Source: an uncultured Thermoplasmata archaeon (GTDB taxonomy: Archaea > Thermoplasmatota > Thermoplasmata > UBA10834). From it: a DNA stretch of 64,000 bases. Below the pieces are notes generated by a model, which was given only the letters and a program-made list of their open reading frames with translations, ran no database searches and was not told the DNA's origin. Location of the stretch: contig CAVRDX010000001.1 in assembly GCA_963719945.1 (NCBI GenBank), positions 1 through 64,000 of the forward strand, in the 5' to 3' direction. How positions within the stretch are numbered: the first letter of the stretch is position 1; every line of letters starts with the position of its first letter. Position numbers and translations under genes: made by a program. Positions 21,424 to 26,364 of the stretch are shown here, in pieces.

Positions 21424-22146
21424 TCACTTCGCTAGTTTCTTGACGTACCCTTCTACCTCGGAGTCGCTCAATCTGCGGAAATTCTCTCCGACTCTGACGA
21501 CACCGATCTCGACGGCCTTCGTGTTCAGGTTCTCCTCGGTGGCCTTGGAGAGCGCCCTGAGTCCGAGCAGGATGGCCTCGTCCACGCTGAGGTCCTCCTT
21601 GTAATCCTCCTCAAAGACATCCATGATGGCGTTCTTGCCAGCACCGATTGACCCGGCCTTGTATGAGACCAGCGCGCCGCTGGGGTCCGTCTCGTAAAGG
21701 TGGCAACCTTGATCATCGACACCTGCGACCAGGAGGGCTGTTCCGAACGGCCTGACGCCGCCATACTGTGTATAGTTCTGCTTGAAGTCACAGAGCCTCT
21801 TGACGAGGGTCTCTATATCGACCTTCTCCGCATAGGTGACCTTGTTGATCTGTGCGACTACCCTTGCGTGGTCCACGAGCACTCTCGCATCCGCAACCAG
21901 TCCCGAGGTCGCGCAGCCTATGTGTTCGTCGATCTGGAATATCTTCTCTATCGAGCGTGATTCGATGAGCCTGCTCGCAATCCTCTTGTCGACTATGAGT
22001 GCGACGCCGTCCTTGAACTTCAGACCGACTGTCGTTGTGCCTCTCTTAACTGCTTCTCTTGCGTATTCGACCTGGAATAGTCTGCCATCTGGTGAGAACA
22101 CCGTGATTGCCCTGTCATACGCCATCTGTCCTGGCTGCATCTTCAT
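21424..22146 (-). CDS. psmA: Proteasome subunit alpha
   Basis: [29 protein letters not shown]. Confidence 0.98.
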
Positions 22147-22227: not shown

Positions 22228-22244
22228 GTATAAAGGTTTTTGGC
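22228..22244 (-). promoter_or_regulatory. psmA promoter (BRE plus TATA)
   Basis: Minus strand GCCAAAAACCTTTATAC, about 80 nt upstream of psmA; BRE overlaps the target-site duplication of the adjacent element. Confidence 0.6.
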
Positions 22245-22440
22245 GAATGTGGTTCTGTCAATGATCGGGTGGTGGTCATCATGACCGCCCCACCGATCGA
22301 CTCGTCCCATTCGGCTCCGACCGTGCGCCCATGAATGGGTCGCAGAGGGTCATCACCACGTCATGCTGGAACGCGCCGGGGCTGAACCGTAAGCCCCCTG
22401 CCATCCCTTCCGGGAAGGCTGTATTCAGCAGGTTTATGCC
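22230..22440 (-). ncRNA. Predicted omegaRNA (scaffold overlapping the tnpB 3' end, plus flanking guide)
   Basis: Hairpins at 22263-22298 and 22324-22344 at the element end; general TnpB biology; boundaries approximate. Confidence 0.5.
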
Positions 22441-23303
22441 GGCGTTGACATGCCTGTCGGCACGCCAACCGCACTCACACTCGAACTCGGAGCCCATTCG
22501 GGAATGATTCAATCTCCCACATATCGGGCACCTCCTGCTGCTGTTGTATGGGTCCACCTTGATGACTGGCACGCCTATCCAGGCTGCCTTGTACTCGATG
22601 AAGTCGTGAAGCATCTTCCGAGGCCACGAGCTCAACCGACGGTTGAGCGATTTGCCACGCTTACGCCCGATCATCCCATTCAGATCCTCGAGCACAATCG
22701 TCGATTTATGCTCCTCCGCGAGGCCGAGGACCGCATTGGCCACTTGGTGCATGCGATACTCGATCCGATGATGCTCTCTCTTCCCCTCTCTGCGACACAA
22801 CCACCTCGATGTCCGTCGATCGTGCGCCTTCCTCTTCTGAAGGCGCTTCCGTCGGTCGTGATGTCGTGCCTGGATGATTGCGACATCTGGATACGCAGCC
22901 CGGATCGGCACGCTTCCAACTTCGCTCATAAACACGCTGTCCAAGCTCCGCTCATTGGTATCGAGCGACAGGACCGTCTCTGGAATGTATGATATAGGTG
23001 GGCTCTTCCTGAAGTCTTTGTACGCCAGCTTCACCAGGGCATTTCTGGAGGTGACCTTTGCCTGGAGGCCGGCCCTGATCGCGCAATTGGCCGCCAGGCG
23101 GAAATCCTCCATGAGCATCCTGGCCTCAAACGGGAGCTCCCCATGAATGTGGAACACTACCGCTCTGTGGAGCATCTAATACGGTATCTGGCCAGGGACA
23201 TATCCATCACCTGGCTACATGCATGCTACTCGTGCGATCGACGAGATATTCATGTCATCGGGAAAGGCACCATCGACAACACCACCCGAAAATTGACAGA
23301 GCC
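22251..23303 (-). mobile_element. Non-autonomous TnpB-carrying element with terminal inverted repeats and a 9-bp target-site duplication
   Basis: TIRs GGTTCTGTCAATGATCGGGTGGTG (22251-22274) and CACCACCCGAAAATTGACAGAGCC (23280-23303), 21/24 match; direct repeat GGCGAATGT at 22242-22250 and 23304-23312; tnpB is the only recognisable gene, no transposase. Confidence 0.9.
22279..23175 (-). CDS. tnpB: TnpB RNA-guided nuclease family protein, short, apparently with an in-frame internal deletion
   Basis: RuvC-I LSLDTNE, RuvC-II IVLEDL, zinc finger CPICG...CECG, RuvC-III ADRHVNAGINL; only ~70 aa precede RuvC-I. Confidence 0.9.
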   Translation of the reverse strand: MLHRAVVFHIHGELPFEARMLMEDFRLAANCAIRAGLQAKVTSRNALVKLAYKDFRKSPPISYIPETVLSLDTNERSLDSVFMSEVGSVPIRAAYPDVAIIQARHHDRRKRLQKRKAHDRRTSRWLCRREGKREHHRIEYRMHQVANAVLGLAEEHKSTIVLEDLNGMIGRKRGKSLNRRLSSWPRKMLHDFIEYKAAWIGVPVIKVDPYNSSRRCPICGRLNHSRMGSEFECECGWRADRHVNAGINLLNTAFPEGMAGGLRFSPGAFQHDVVMTLCDPFMGARSEPNGTSRSVGRS

Positions 23304-23344
23304 GGCGAATGTGAAATCGAGCATATCGATATTGTCGATCGGAC

Positions 23345-23683
23345 CTACTCCCAAGTCTTCTGCTTGGGCGAATCCGCTTTCAGATACTGTCGTTTGAGGT
23401 TCTTGATGGTGCCCGAAGTCCTGAGCGTGACCACCTTGCACGGGACATTCCTGACCGAGTCCACCTTCGTCAATACCTCTATCGCCTCGTCCTTGAGCCT
23501 GTGAGGGACCTTGAGTATTCCGACCTCGGGTTCGAACACGGTTATCCTGAAACCGTTCTGGACGGGCGTGCCTTTCGCCTTCGCCAAAAGTGATGTTAGA
23601 AAATCGTTTCTGGCGAAAGGTCTCACGCTCTCGATCCTGAAAGCGATGTACCTCCACCTCTCGCCAGGTGCCTTCTTCGGCAT
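23345..23683 (-). CDS. rnp2: Ribonuclease P protein component 2 (Pop5/Rpp14)
   Basis: ERWRYIAFRI, TLRTSGTIK; normally directly upstream of psmA. Confidence 0.88.
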   Translation of the reverse strand: MPKKAPGERWRYIAFRIESVRPFARNDFLTSLLAKAKGTPVQNGFRITVFEPEVGILKVPHRLKDEAIEVLTKVDSVRNVPCKVVTLRTSGTIKNLKRQYLKADSPKQKTWE

Positions 23684-23688
23684 GGATC

Positions 23689-24798
23689 TCAGCGCACGAA
23701 TTCCATGCCATGTTTGGCGTTGTTCTGTGAATCGGGGGACAGTAGCTGCGGGCTCTTGACTCCGGTGAGGACGAGCATGACCCTCATGAGTCCGTCCATG
23801 GCAGGGTCCACGCTGCAACCCCAGATTATCCTCGCGTTCGGATTGATCTTGGCGTTGACGAGTTCGGCAGCCTTCTCCGCTTCGGAGACGGTCATGTCCG
23901 TTCCGCCAGTCACCCTGATCAGAGCGCCTCTCGCGCTCGAAAGGTCGATATCTCCCAGGAGTGGCGATTCGAGTGCTTGTCTGACTGCGCTGTCCACACG
24001 GTCTCCTCTCGAGGAAGTCTTGTTGTCAGCCTCTCCCATTCCTATGAGCGCGACACCGCCGTTCTTCATGATCGTCATGACATCGTTGAAGTCCAAGTTG
24101 ACGAGTCCAGGTTTGGTGATTATCTCCGTGAGCCCCTTGATGGATTCCATCAGGACCTCGTCCGCCACTCTGAAAGCAGCGTCCAGAGGCAGTTTTGGGA
24201 CCAGCTCGAGGAGCTTGTCGTTCGGTATGACTGCAGTGGTATCGCAATTCATCTTGAGCCTTTCAAGACCTCTGATCGCGTTCTCCATGCGGATCTTGCC
24301 CTCGGCTTTGAACGGCATAGTGACTATGCCGATCGTGAGAGCGCCGGATTCCCTGGCCATCCTCGCGACGACTGGTGCGGACCCTGTGCCCGTTCCGCCG
24401 CCCATACCCGCAGTGACGAAGACGATATTGGACCCCTTCACATACTGCTTCAGGTCCTCTTCGGATTCCATCGCGGCTCTCTCGCCTATTTCGGGGAGTG
24501 CTCCTGCGCCCAACCCCTTCGTCAAGGTCTTGCCTAGGAGAATCTTGTGCGGTGAATGGATATGCAACAGGTGCTTGGCATCGGTGTTCGCAGCGACAAT
24601 ATCGGCACCGAATATGCCCGATTGCTGGAGACGGTTGACCGTGTTGGAACCTCCGCCCCCACATCCTACGATAGTTATGTTCACCTTCAGCTTCTCAACT
24701 ATCTTGGCAAGCTCCTCATCCTCAGGAGTGCCCATTGCTTCCTTCGTGCTCTTTTCCAGCGCGTGCAGCTCGAGAGCATCATCTATGAGTGATTTCAT
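23689..24798 (-). CDS. ftsZ: Cell division protein FtsZ (paralog A)
   Basis: GCGGGGSN, ANTD, GMGGGTGTG, NLDFND. Confidence 0.96.
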   Translation of the reverse strand: MKSLIDDALELHALEKSTKEAMGTPEDEELAKIVEKLKVNITIVGCGGGGSNTVNRLQQSGIFGADIVAANTDAKHLLHIHSPHKILLGKTLTKGLGAGALPEIGERAAMESEEDLKQYVKGSNIVFVTAGMGGGTGTGSAPVVARMARESGALTIGIVTMPFKAEGKIRMENAIRGLERLKMNCDTTAVIPNDKLLELVPKLPLDAAFRVADEVLMESIKGLTEIITKPGLVNLDFNDVMTIMKNGGVALIGMGEADNKTSSRGDRVDSAVRQALESPLLGDIDLSSARGALIRVTGGTDMTVSEAEKAAELVNAKINPNARIIWGCSVDPAMDGLMRVMLVLTGVKSPQLLSPDSQNNAKHGMEFVR

Positions 24799-25149
24799 TT
24801 CATCCCATCCTAAATTGTTTGCATTATGAAATAATCTGCTAACTATATAAACGAATCCACACCCGCCAGTGTGCGTTTCTTCGAAGGTGCGTGAGCGCGC
24901 ACGCGCATCGTGTCTTCGACCAAAACCCAAGACCGTTCCCATCGTCTCTCATCTCCGGCGTTCGACCACCCGCATGTGCATGCGTATATCGAGAGTTTTC
25001 AATGAATTATCGAGCGCGCGCACCCCCGTGCACGGTGAACGGGACACGACTTTATCGTGTTTGAGAACGAAATACTGGCTTGACCCAGTATTTAGGAATG
25101 TTTATATTCGAGTTACTGGATATCTTATACAGCTTTATGGGGTGCATTA

Positions 25150-26364
25150 ATGCCGAAATCACTTGTCAAAGACGCATTGGGAAAAGACGTGCAAGAAATT
25201 ATAGAGAAATCTTCTCAACAGCCCGAACAGAAAGCGCAGGCTCCACAACCTGCACCCATGTCCGCGGACGATGAAGAGATAGCCAAAATCGCGGAGCAAC
25301 TGGATGTTAGCATCAAGATCATTGGTTGCGGCGGTGGCGGATCGAACACCATAAACAGGTGTGTTGAGGCTGGGATCTCAGGAGCGCAGCTGTGTGCGAT
25401 AAACACGGATGCCAAGCATCTGCTGGTCATACACGCGCCCCGGAAGATATTGATTGGAAAGAACGTCACGCGTGGTCTGGGTGCCGGCGCGATACCGCAG
25501 GTCGGAGAGGCTGCAGCTAAGGAGAACGAGCGCGAGATACGCGACTTCCTGAACGGTGCCAACATCGTGTTCGTCACCGCAGGAATGGGTGGCGGGACTG
25601 GTACTGGCTCAGCACACTTTGCTGCGAGGCTTTCGAAGGAGATGAAGGCCCTGACCATCGGTGTCGTCACTATGCCGTTCAAGGCGGAGGGCGAACTCCG
25701 GATGGAGAACGCTCTTGATGGATTGGAGAGGCTGAGGAGACTCTGCGACACGACCATCGTGATACCGAACGACAAGCTCCTGGAACTGGTCCCGAAGTTG
25801 CCAGTCGATGCGGCTTTCAAGGTCGCCGACGAGATTCTGATGCAGACCATCAGAGGCCTTACCGAGATCATAACGAAGCCCGGACTGGTCAACCTCGATT
25901 ACAGTGACATAATGACTGTCATGAACGAGGGCGGAGTGGCCTTCGTGGGAATGGGCGAGTCCGAGGATTCGGACGCCGAGGAGAGGATCCAGTCCGCAGT
26001 GGATGAGGCTCTCAACTCACCGTTGCTGGGCGAGATCGACCTCGGAGATGCGAGGGGTGCGCTCATCAGGGTAGTCGGTGGACCGGACATGACCGTCACC
26101 GAGGCTCAGCGGGCTGCTGAGGTCGTCGGTGAGAGGATCAACAAGCATGCGAGGCTCATATGGGGATGCAGTGTCGACCCAGCCTACGAGGGACAGGTCC
26201 GCGTGCTGCTGATCGTGACCGGTGCGAAGTCGAGCACATTGATCGGCAAGAACCACAACAGCGTGGCACACACACAGTCGAACAACAACAACGACAGGCC
26301 TTCACAAGCACAATCGCGTTCGTACGGTGCCGAGGACGACTCTGGAATCGACTTCGTGAGATAG
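25150..26364 (+). CDS. ftsZ: Cell division protein FtsZ (paralog B)
   Basis: GCGGGGSN, INTD, GMGGGTGTG, NLDYSD, C-terminal GIDFVR. Confidence 0.96.
   Translation: MPKSLVKDALGKDVQEIIEKSSQQPEQKAQAPQPAPMSADDEEIAKIAEQLDVSIKIIGCGGGGSNTINRCVEAGISGAQLCAINTDAKHLLVIHAPRKILIGKNVTRGLGAGAIPQVGEAAAKENEREIRDFLNGANIVFVTAGMGGGTGTGSAHFAARLSKEMKALTIGVVTMPFKAEGELRMENALDGLERLRRLCDTTIVIPNDKLLELVPKLPVDAAFKVADEILMQTIRGLTEIITKPGLVNLDYSDIMTVMNEGGVAFVGMGESEDSDAEERIQSAVDEALNSPLLGEIDLGDARGALIRVVGGPDMTVTEAQRAAEVVGERINKHARLIWGCSVDPAYEGQVRVLLIVTGAKSSTLIGKNHNSVAHTQSNNNNDRPSQAQSRSYGAEDDSGIDFVR

What the first reader, a model, noticed from the sequence alone, without database searches (positions are those of the whole stretch)
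22242..23312. TnpB element with DDE-type ends: terminal inverted repeats and a 9-bp target-site duplication, no transposase
Seen in sequence: a 1053-bp unit whose only recognisable gene is tnpB, bounded by 24-bp imperfect TIRs (GGTTCTGTCAATGATCGGGTGGTG vs GGCTCTGTCAATTTTCGGGTGGTG) and flanked by an exact GGCGAATGT direct repeat. It splits the normally adjacent pop5 and psmA genes. Established: canonical TnpB hosts (IS200/IS605 with HUH TnpA, IS607 with a serine recombinase) make neither TIRs nor TSDs. GG(C/T)T(C/T)TGT ends with 9-bp TSDs resemble IS5-family IS903-group DDE elements. Inference: a MITE-like RNA-guided element moved in trans by a cut-and-paste DDE transposase. TnpB-DDE associations have been noted in surveys but are little characterised, especially in archaea.
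Basis: partly seen in the sequence, partly recalled or inferred. Interest (0 to 1): 0.9.

Follow-up and report, generated by a model that had tools for sequence, protein, structure and literature searches.

The report
TnpB guide-RNA element with IS6-type ends
This is a decayed copy of a small archaeal jumping element that carries an RNA-guided nuclease gene but has the ends and insertion footprint of a different, DDE-type transposon family, and it always sits in one orientation beside a fixed TT in the target DNA.

Summary
Window 22251-23303 is a 1053-bp element with 24-bp inverted ends (21 of 24 match) and an exact 9-bp duplication, GGCGAATGT. A sister genome and a metagenome contig carry the empty site.

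It is an in-frame, 321-bp deletion derivative of a 1.36-kb element. The genome holds 4 copies, and related Thermoplasmata hold many more, including 276-593-bp miniature forms.

The ends are not IS5/IS903-like. They match the IS6/IS26 end consensus, and they match the ends of archaeal IS6-like (DDE_Tnp_IS240) transposase elements. Those elements also make 9-bp duplications and prefer similar TATA-like/TT sites. Sister genomes keep transposase remnants whose stop codon lies inside such an end. No transposase of this family was found in this genome. No locus held both genes (0 of 249).

The element's 3' 160 nt form a covariation-supported RNA that looks like a TnpB guide-RNA (omegaRNA) scaffold. 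tnpB is under purifying selection.

New here: in 34 of 34 independent insertions, an invariant TT lies 2-3 bp before the duplication on the tnpB 5' side only. That is where a TnpB target-adjacent motif would lie in the empty site.

Verdict: a non-autonomous TnpB/guide-RNA element moved in trans by an IS6-like DDE transposase. This is a new variant of the known TnpB-DDE association. The TAM reading is inferred, not shown.

The parts
22242..22250 (.). Target-site duplication, left copy (GGCGAATGT). On the tnpB strand it is the first 9 nt after the element's 3' end, so it would be the start of a read-out guide.
   Evidence: single copy at the empty site in G005 and in a metagenome contig.
22251..22274 (-). 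Terminal inverted repeat at the 3' end of tnpB (GGTTCTGTCAATGATCGGGTGGTG read inward). Its inner part is the 3' arm of a terminal hairpin.
22251..22408 (-). Conserved structured RNA that looks like an omegaRNA scaffold. It overlaps the last codons of tnpB and runs to the element's end.
   Evidence: Covariance model R1 matches 22251-22408 (-) at 178 bits. The structure has 28 pairs, 16 of them with compensatory changes.
22279..23175 (-). tnpB, 298 aa. It is an in-frame deletion form that lacks 107 residues of the N-terminal half. The zinc ribbon and the residues I read as the RuvC D, E, D are present.
23002..23017 (.). Junction of the 321-bp internal deletion, at a 12-13-nt direct repeat (CTCTTCCTGAAG) that occurs twice in full-length copies.
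   Evidence: Overlapping matches; alignment.
23176..23279 (-). Conserved leader between the 5' end repeat and the tnpB start codon.
   Evidence: Alignment of the four copies.
23280..23303 (+). Terminal inverted repeat at the 5' end of tnpB.
23304..23312 (.). Target-site duplication, right copy.
23313..23317 (-). Flank ATTTC on the tnpB strand. It holds the invariant TT at -3,-2 before the duplication, the candidate target-adjacent motif.
   Evidence: 34 of 34 insertions.
22229..22241 (-). TATA-like/A-rich stretch (AAAAACCTTTATA on the minus strand) upstream of psmA. It is the kind of site these elements insert beside, but here it lies on the tnpB 3' side. Calling it the psmA promoter is my reading; no transcript data were seen.

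Best explanation
The unit is an old, internally deleted copy of a non-autonomous archaeal insertion element. The cargo of that element is a TnpB RNA-guided nuclease gene with its guide-RNA scaffold. Its ends are those of an archaeal IS6-like DDE transposon. An IS6-like (DDE_Tnp_IS240) transposase supplied in trans binds the 24-bp ends and integrates the element with a 9-bp staggered cut, preferentially next to a TATA-like/B-T-T-N motif just upstream of host promoters. Shown: the ends, the duplications, the empty sites, the multi-copy family with miniatures, the same ends, duplication length and a similar site preference in transposase-bearing relatives, the conserved RNA structure, and purifying selection on tnpB. 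Inferred: the trans-mobilisation itself. Also inferred: that the RNA is transcribed through the 3' end into the duplication and flank, so that TnpB can cut the unoccupied allele (TTN + duplication + 3' flank) and drive copying of the element into it. That would explain why all TnpB-type insertions share one orientation.
For: Family and mobility. There are 4 copies in the genome: 3 have both ends and distinct 9-bp duplications, and the fourth has lost one end. Relatives at E<=1e-40 occur in 71 of 401 genomes of the class, including 29 of 45 in the own family, 21 of 33 in f25 and 15 of 59 in f11. Duplications are 9/9 in 27 and 8/9 in 13 of 78 candidate pairs, against an offset control maximum of 5/9. 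Empty sites exist for all three flanked own copies. One site was hit twice independently, 1 bp apart.

Link to IS6-like transposase. The ends start GGTTCTGT(T/C)..., matching the IS6/IS26 consensus GGTTCTGTTGCAAA (PMC6807381, passages read). In G001 and G002 a DDE_Tnp_IS240 remnant ends with its stop codon inside GGTTCTGTCTAGCCATCGGGTG. Transposase fragments lie next to such ends in 12 of 45 genomes of the family. Ten transposase-bearing elements of 1.6-4.1 kb have perfect 9-bp duplications, and 7 of the 10 have TT at -3,-2 on one side or both. Pfam: DDE_Tnp_IS240 at E 1e-17 to 8e-21.

RNA. 28 pairs, 97.5% of cells paired, 16 pairs with changes on both sides against 7.9 +/- 1.5 in shuffles (0 of 500 reach it), and 31-44% paired when partners are slid. 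The model hits only the 3' ends of the 4 own copies. It hits every TnpB locus tested in other families, and it gives no match above 22 bits in the 10 transposase-bearing elements with duplications, apart from one 60.6-bit remnant inside the composite L049.

tnpB. dN/dS is 0.13-0.28 in all 28 pairs with measurable dS. The RuvC/zinc-ribbon region aligns to solved TnpB and Cas12f structures, E 2e-11.

Polarity. TT at -3,-2 on the tnpB 5' side in 34 of 34 independent insertions; the mirrored 3' side has it in 2 of 34. Orientation was set by tblastn, independently of the flanks.
Against: No transposase of this family was found in the window's genome (87% complete), either with Pfam PF13610, a protein query or a profile. 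None was found in G012 (97% complete, at least 29 TnpB matches). G010 and G013 have only fragments, and G006 has one copy interrupted by a TAG. So no working partner is seen where the elements are most numerous.

Copies within a genome are only 77-96% identical, so there is no sign of recent movement.

Classical IS6 members make 8-bp duplications, not 9 (PMC7986276 and PMC6807381; only ISH15 and ISPfu5 are listed with 9). Harmer and Hall question whether archaeal 'IS6' elements belong to that family at all.

No RNA data exist for the guide RNA, and no Rfam family matches.

Of 10 plausible true end pairs with a poor duplication (7/9 or less), 2 lack the TT. Which of the 20 low-scoring candidate pairs are real was my own judgement.

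The transposase-bearing comparison set is small (10 elements). Several are tandem or sit at what may be one hot spot, so the contrast in polarity is suggestive only.
Confidence: 0.78

Rival explanations
1. The fixed orientation and the invariant TT come from the transposase alone. It reads an asymmetric target and tells the two ends apart. TnpB and its RNA are passive cargo with some other role, or with none at these sites.
For: Transposase-bearing elements without TnpB also sit beside TATA-like/TT motifs: 7 of 10 have TT on at least one side. So the site preference belongs to the transposase. The sample of such elements is too small to exclude a bias.
Against: In those 10 elements the TT is on the transposase 5' side only in 2, on the 3' side only in 4, on both in 1 and on neither in 3. 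TnpB-type elements show 34 of 34 on one side. A Fisher test of 34:0 against 3:4 gives p = 3e-4, but the rows are not all independent. The end sequences do not mark polarity. GGTTCTGTCACAA(A/T)TCGGGTG is the 5' end in L024, L137 and L138 and the 3' end in L022, L038, L101 and L108. Orientation therefore follows tnpB and the RNA, not the end sequence.
Confidence: 0.3
2. The orientation bias reflects selection on expression. Only insertions whose tnpB 5' end abuts the A/T-rich promoter region of a divergent host gene are transcribed or tolerated. The opposite orientation would send read-through into the host gene.
For: The 5' flank is TATA-like at -11 to -6 in most insertions. The elements sit in intergenic promoter regions.
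Against: The TT at -3,-2 is invariant (34 of 34), while the TATA-like part is only a preference (for example 22 of 34 A at -10). The window's own copy has its 3' end facing the TATA-like stretch upstream of psmA and no TATA-like stretch on its 5' side, yet it still has ATTTC there. That fits direct read-out of TT better than promoter context.
Confidence: 0.15
3. It is an ordinary IS200/IS605-type (IS1341-like) TnpB element moved by a Y1 TnpA. On this reading the inverted repeats and direct repeats are incidental.
For: The protein is a TnpB, and a structured RNA lies at its 3' end as in IS605 elements.
Against: Forty insertions with 8-9 of 9 identical flanking 9-mers of unrelated sequence, together with clean empty sites, are incompatible with HUH single-strand transposition, which makes no duplication (PMC13565253, passages read). 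The two ends are inverted copies over 22-24 nt. Y1 TnpA itself was not searched for in the genomes.
Confidence: 0.02

Closest known systems
TnpB branches associated with DDE transposases (IS630, and IS5-family ISL2 and IS1031 groups), Altae-Tran et al. 2023 PNAS (PMC10691335, passages read); review PMC13565253 (passages read)
   Same: TnpB inside an element with symmetric inverted terminal repeats. The tnpB 3' end lies within 250 bp of the element's end. Solo TnpB elements share ends with transposase-bearing ones and are thought to be moved in trans.
   Different: The partner family here is IS6-like (DDE_Tnp_IS240), which is not among the families named in the passages I read. I could not see their supplementary tables, which may list more. 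Transposase and TnpB were never found in one element here (0 of 249 loci). The duplication is 9 bp and of variable sequence. The strict polarity beside an invariant TT is not described in those passages.
IS6/IS26 family, including the archaeal members (Harmer and Hall 2019, PMC6807381; Varani et al. 2021, PMC7986276; passages read)
   Same: GG tips, a cTGTt core, and the first 12 nt of some copies identical to the consensus GGTTCTGTTGCAAA. Related elements carry a DDE_Tnp_IS240 transposase. Direct head-to-tail arrays occur.
   Different: The duplication is 9 bp, not 8. The ends are 24 bp with a conserved inner CGGGTGGTG block. The element has no transposase but carries TnpB. Varani et al. report a single passenger-carrying member and two MITEs for the whole family. 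The related transposases are 300-450 aa with a zinc ribbon and often a SWIM domain, against 213-254 aa.
IS200/IS605 family, IS1341-type TnpB-only elements with omegaRNA (ISDra2, IS608)
   Same: A TnpB of about 400 aa with a RuvC domain and a zinc ribbon. A structured RNA overlaps the gene's 3' end and ends at the element boundary. A transposase target motif could double as the TAM.
   Different: IS200/IS605 elements have no inverted ends and make no duplication, and they are moved by an HUH TnpA. Here both features are present.
Fanzor in eukaryotic DDE transposons (as summarised in PMC13565253)
   Same: A TnpB-type nuclease rides in TIR/TSD transposons. The 5' side of the insertion supplies the TAM.
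   Different: According to that review, in Fanzors the short, fixed duplication (for example TA) is itself part of the TAM, and the 3' duplication lies in the RNA scaffold. Here the 9-bp duplication is variable and the fixed bases lie just outside it.

Membership tests
TnpB (OMEGA effector) protein family | C-terminal RuvC nuclease with an inserted zinc ribbon (TNB domain) | tested here: met
   Pfam PF07282 at E 8e-19. NCBIfam guided_TnpB scores 97.6 bits, just under its 100-bit cut-off. The region aligns to solved TnpB 9nzp at E 2e-11. I read the D, E, D positions in the translation; they were not verified in a structure.
TnpB (OMEGA effector) protein family | Cognate structured guide RNA encoded at the 3' end of the gene | tested here: met
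   Covariation-supported structure. The model is specific to the elements' 3' ends. Transcription and the guide portion were not observed.
IS200/IS605 transposon family (IS1341 group) | No terminal inverted repeats and no target duplication; asymmetric hairpin ends; HUH TnpA | tested here: not met
   24-bp inverted ends and 9-bp duplications in 40 insertions.
IS6/IS26 family | Terminal repeats with the consensus GGTTCTGTTGCAAA (GG tips, G at position 7) | tested here: met
   GGTTCTGT is invariant. Several copies read GGTTCTGTTGCA.... The window copy reads GGTTCTGTCAAT. Consensus taken from PMC6807381.
IS6/IS26 family | 8-bp target duplication | tested here: not met
   9 bp throughout, including the transposase-bearing relatives.
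IS6/IS26 family | Encodes a DDE_Tnp_IS240-type transposase | tested here: not met
   None in the element, and none found in the genome. Relatives with the same type of ends do encode it. The element is therefore at most a non-autonomous derivative.
   The 9-bp duplication fits. No search for IS903-type transposases was run. The only transposases found with these ends are IS240-type. In the own genome the ends occur only at the four TnpB copies.
MITE (miniature inverted-repeat element) | Short non-coding element made of the two ends of a parent IS | tested here: not met
   The window copy is 1053 bp with a 298-aa ORF. True miniatures of 276-593 bp that keep the RNA-coding 3' part occur in relatives.

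The most novel reading that the evidence does not exclude
The IS6-like transposase's target motif (…B-T-T-N just before the 9-bp staggered cut) doubles as the TAM of the cargo TnpB. The guide RNA, read out through the 3' end repeat, matches the duplication plus the 3' flank. TnpB then cuts only unoccupied alleles and drives copying of the element into sister chromosomes or incoming DNA. This would be a homing-type gene drive grafted onto a DDE transposon. It would leave its mark as a strictly one-sided orientation (34 of 34), including in miniatures that keep only the guide-RNA module.
Probability: 0.45. Interest if true: 0.85.

Novelty: new variant of a known kind. Interest (0 to 1): 0.7.

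Why it matters
TnpB is the ancestor of Cas12 and a compact genome-editing nuclease. Its natural role has been worked out only for IS605/IS607 elements, which excise without a scar. How an RNA-guided homing nuclease can serve a DDE transposon that duplicates a variable target is an open question. The 2026 OMEGA review suggests that the benefit to DDE transposons may be small and the association rare.

This family offers a concrete, testable answer. The fixed bases lie just outside the duplication, on one side only, where a TAM must lie.

It also adds three things. It is an IS family partner (IS6-like) not named for TnpB in the papers I read. It is a large natural series of guide-RNA-bearing miniatures. 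And it points to a probable short T-rich TAM for a 405-aa archaeal TnpB.

Tried and rejected
- IS5/IS903 reading: rejected in favour of IS6-like.
- Autonomous partner in the own genome: not found. The end motif (up to 6 mismatches) occurs only at the 4 copies, plus 2 chance matches with 6 mismatches. Self-BLAST shows no other IS-like repeat. PF13610, the transposase fragment and a 12-sequence profile found nothing.
- An element holding both the transposase and TnpB: 0 of 80 transposase loci and 0 of 249 held loci.
- The 2017-bp end pair in L049 looked like a candidate autonomous element. It encloses a secreted-protein ORF, a transposase C-terminal remnant and a reversed guide-RNA remnant. It is a composite, not a partner.
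- The 1186-aa open frame around a TnpB in G208 is spurious. It is an antisense extension over a long ORF on the other strand that I read as Lon-protease-like.
- My automatic end finder failed on most transposase loci. Only 3 of 80 gave ends plus a duplication, so the transposase comparison set stayed at 10.
- Rfam: no match at E<=1.
- Expression: no RNA holder listed among the public runs.
- Contigs of four DNA runs were laid. They are fragmentary, and the only usable result is the empty-site joint and some loose ends from other copies.
- Two loose ends from that run seem to show further insertion sites with the same 5'-side motif. I read this by eye from 30-nt consensus strings and did not count them.
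- I looked for TT loss in empty alleles. G005 reads TCC where the window has TTC at site W, but the empty alleles of sites B and C keep the TT. No conclusion.
- Structure prediction, complex prediction and the large protein-database searches were not run.
Full report
**1. What is in the window**

Positions 22251-23303 are bounded by 24-nt inverted arms, with 21 of 24 positions matching. The arms are flanked by GGCGAATGT at 22242-22250 and 23304-23312. The only long ORF is 22279-23175 on the minus strand. It encodes 298 aa with a Cas12f1-like TNB domain (E 9e-19). The neighbours are the proteasome alpha subunit gene psmA (21424-22146, -) and an Rpp14/Pop5 gene (23345-23818, -).

**2. It is a deletion derivative of a multi-copy element**

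The window's genome (4 contigs, 1.78 Mb, 87% complete) holds three more copies of 1342-1374 bp.
- Copy B (C1:372213-373586) is intact. It has both ends, the duplication CCACTCAGA and a 405-aa TnpB.
- Copy C (C3:308280-309621) has both ends and the duplication GTCTCAAGA, but its gene is frameshifted.
- Copy A (C1:171965-173317) has an intact 407-aa gene but has lost its 5' end.

The window copy lacks 321 bp (107 codons, in frame). The deletion lies between two copies of a 12-13-nt direct repeat, with the junction at 23002-23017. The missing codons are in the N-terminal half. The zinc ribbon and the residues I read as the RuvC D, E, D remain.

**3. The insertions are real**

The closest sister genome, G005 (95% identical in the flank), has the uninterrupted site with one GGCGAATGT. 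One contig of a public metagenome run joins 22241 to 23304. G006 and G010 carry, at the same place, a solo end remnant with a 38-bp flank deletion. The insertion therefore predates the split of those genomes and is decaying.

Sites B and C are empty, with a single copy of the target, in G005 and G010 (site B) and in G006 and G010 (site C). Site B was hit independently in G006 by a 345-bp miniature, 1 bp out of register and in the same orientation.

**4. The family**

TnpB relatives (E<=1e-40) occur in 71 of 401 sampled genomes of the class: 29 of 45 in the own family, 21 of 33 in f25, 15 of 59 in f11, and a few elsewhere. They are often multi-copy and often lie at contig ends.

The end motif GGTTCTG-N7-10-GGGTGGT occurs 150 times in 30 of 46 genomes of the family, against 3 matches for the reversed control. 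Many hits form pairs 276-593 bp apart. These are miniatures that keep about 60-130 bp of the 5' end and the last 200-300 bp.

Over all loci I held there were 78 non-redundant candidate end pairs. Twenty-seven had 9/9 identical flanking 9-mers and 13 had 8/9. An offset control never exceeded 5/9. The remaining 38 pairs are mostly false pairings produced by my loose pattern.

The same ends and a 9-bp duplication are seen in family f25, where TnpB is only 46-48% identical (L101, L108).

Copies within one genome are 77-96% identical, so no recent burst is visible.

**5. Whose ends are these?**

The ends begin GGTTCTGT, and several subfamilies read GGTTCTGTTGCA.... The consensus of the bacterial IS6/IS26 family is GGTTCTGTTGCAAA (Harmer and Hall 2019, PMC6807381, passages read). 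Varani et al. 2021 (PMC7986276, passages read) give GG tips and a cTGTt core for bacterial and archaeal members.

Searching the family for Pfam DDE_Tnp_IS240 gave matches in 4 of 46 genomes. In G001 and G002 the match is an N-terminally truncated transposase whose last codons and stop lie inside GGTTCTGTCTAGCCATCGGGTG. That is an end of the same extended type as the TnpB elements.

With that fragment as the query, 63 of 401 genomes of the class matched. In the own family, 12 of 45 matched, all as fragments, and those I examined lie directly beside end-motif hits.

Full-length genes occur in other families. They encode 300-450 aa with a zinc ribbon, often a SWIM domain, and a DDE_Tnp_IS240 domain (E 1e-17 to 8e-21).

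Ten transposase-bearing elements of 1.6-4.1 kb have ends starting GGT(T/A)C(T/C)GT and perfect 9-bp duplications. So this archaeal IS6-like group makes 9-bp duplications, unlike the 8 bp of classical IS6. ISfinder lists 9 bp only for ISH15 and ISPfu5, according to Table 5 of PMC6807381.

TnpB and the transposase were never in one locus: 0 of 80 transposase loci and 0 of 249 held loci.

In the TnpB-rich genomes G000 and G012 no transposase of this family was found. G010 and G013 have fragments, and G006 has one copy with an internal TAG. The TnpB elements therefore look like orphaned non-autonomous relatives of these IS. Alternatively, their partner may lie on DNA that is not in these assemblies.

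**6. A conserved RNA at the 3' end**

I aligned the last 160 nt of 20 diverse copies, on the tnpB strand. They fold into a common structure of 28 pairs. Cells are 97.5% paired, and 16 pairs show changes on both sides, against 7.9 +/- 1.5 in column shuffles (0 of 500 reach the observed value). Only 31-44% are paired when partners are slid by 1-3 columns.

By eye, a further terminal hairpin uses the inner part of the end repeat as its 3' arm. It co-varies between subfamilies, for example GGTGGTCAT/ATGACCACC against GGTGATC/GATCACC. This hairpin was not scored.

A covariance model of the region finds exactly the four 3' ends in the own genome; in the window that is 22251-22408 (-), at 178 bits. 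It also finds every TnpB locus tested in families f2, f11, f25 and f27. In the ten transposase-bearing elements with duplications it gives only weak matches to the end repeat (about 21 bits), except for one 60.6-bit guide-RNA remnant inside the composite L049.

Rfam has no match. Position and form are those of a TnpB omegaRNA scaffold that ends at the element boundary. Transcription was not observed: no RNA run is listed.

tnpB itself is under purifying selection. dN/dS is 0.13-0.28 in all 28 pairs with measurable dS, among 8 intact genes of the genus and close kin. The ninth gene was too diverged to give a dS.

**7. The unexpected part: a one-sided, invariant TT**

I oriented every insertion by tblastn with TnpB, which does not use the flanks. 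I kept those with at least 8/9 duplication identity: 36 rows, or 34 after removing orthologous sites. All 34 have T at both -3 and -2 before the duplication on the tnpB 5' side. Position -4 is never A, and positions -11 to -6 are A/T-rich and TATA-like. The duplication itself and the 3' flank show no pattern. The mirrored positions on the 3' side are TT in 2 of 34.

Among 20 low-scoring candidate pairs, I judged 10 to be real elements with degraded duplications. Eight of these have the TT, and L112 and L164 do not.

The reverse complement of the motif reads AAAG-N-TTATA, which I take to be a BRE/TATA-like promoter pointing away from the element. On that reading these elements sit just upstream of host promoters. 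The promoter reading is mine and was not tested.

Transposase-bearing elements share the site preference but not the polarity. The TT is on the transposase 5' side only in 2, on the 3' side only in 4, on both in 1 and on neither in 3 of 10. This set is small. Several members are tandem or lie at what may be one hot spot, and the two most distant ones lack the motif.

The end sequences do not encode the polarity. The same end variant is the 5' end in some subfamilies and the 3' end in others.

The window's own copy is instructive. Its 3' end faces the TATA-like stretch upstream of psmA, so the promoter-like motif is on the 'wrong' side. Yet its 5' flank is ATTTC.

**8. Reading**

In the unoccupied allele the sequence is ...B-T-T-N | 9 bp | 3' flank. 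An RNA read out through the 3' end repeat would carry the 9 bp plus the 3' flank as its guide. The TT would then sit exactly where a TnpB TAM must lie. In the occupied allele the guide-matching sequence is preceded by the element's end (...GAACC), so it would be spared.

This is the IS605 logic, in which the transposase target equals the TAM, transferred to a transposon with inverted ends and duplications. It differs from what the 2026 OMEGA review (PMC13565253, passages read) reports for Fanzors. There, the short fixed duplication is itself part of the TAM.

This reading would explain the polarity, the retention of the RNA module in the miniatures and the selection on tnpB. It is an inference. 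The rivals are a polar transposase, or selection through expression. They are not excluded.

**9. Comparison with what is known**

Altae-Tran et al. 2023 (PMC10691335, passages read) report TnpB branches associated with DDE transposases, naming IS630. They found inverted terminal repeats around all six DDE-associated TnpBs that they examined. They also report solo TnpBs with ends nearly identical to those of transposase-bearing systems, and inferred mobilisation in trans. The 2026 review lists ISL2, IS630 and IS1031.

An IS6-like partner is not named in the passages I read. A whole-word search for TnpB together with IS6 (15 papers, listing only) returned only incidental co-mentions, mostly in resistance genomics. 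Two other searches surfaced nothing on it. Supplementary tables, which I could not see, may hold such a branch.

The kind of association is therefore known. The partner family, the 9-bp variable duplication, the large set of RNA-bearing miniatures and the one-sided TT are new as far as I could check.

**10. Verdict**

It is wrong in family, which is IS6-like rather than IS903, and the mechanism (cut-and-paste or copy-in) remains open. The window copy itself is an old, crippled member. The interest lies in the family.

Noticed in passing
L067 589/599, L069 1379/1389 (= L167 3716/3726), L081 1772/1782 (= L049 84/94), L078 left flank, L166 2222/2232: Ends of two elements lie back to back, head to tail, separated by exactly 9 bp, and that 9-mer is repeated at the far side of the second element. 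New copies seem to insert into the 9 bp that abut a resident end. In L167 a 2.3-kb transposase element sits this way beside a 353-bp miniature.
   Followed up: partly
L061/L065 (G001), L063/L066 (G002), L049 (G013), L070 (G339): Transposase genes or remnants of this IS6-like family repeatedly lie next to a short ORF that I took for a CopG-like gene, followed by ftsZ, in different genera and families. This is either an old shared insertion or a hot spot at that promoter.
   Followed up: no
L177 1324-5458: A 4135-bp element with the same type of ends and a perfect 9-bp duplication (GTTACAAGC). It holds the transposase gene plus about 2 kb of further DNA, possibly cargo.
   Followed up: no
G000 C1:142210-144448 and C1:155626-157864 (outside the window): A 2.24-kb repeat, 98.75% identical, encoding two proteins of 327 and 287 aa. 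I saw no transposase-like features in them and ran no domain search. Apart from the TnpB element it is the only long, near-identical (over 90%) repeat in the genome.
   Followed up: partly
window 23689-24942 (-) and 25150-26364 (+): Two divergently arranged ORFs directly beside pop5 that look like FtsZ paralogues, judged from their sequences only.
   Followed up: no
L114 (G005) empty site, opposite window 23313-23315: The empty allele reads TCC where the occupied allele has TTC at the candidate TAM. The empty alleles of the other two sites keep their TT, so nothing can be concluded.
   Followed up: partly
L115, L116 (G010, G006), site of the window element: A solo 3' end repeat of about 33 bp is left at the psmA-pop5 site, with 38 bp of flank deleted. 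It is a relic of the same insertion.
   Followed up: yes
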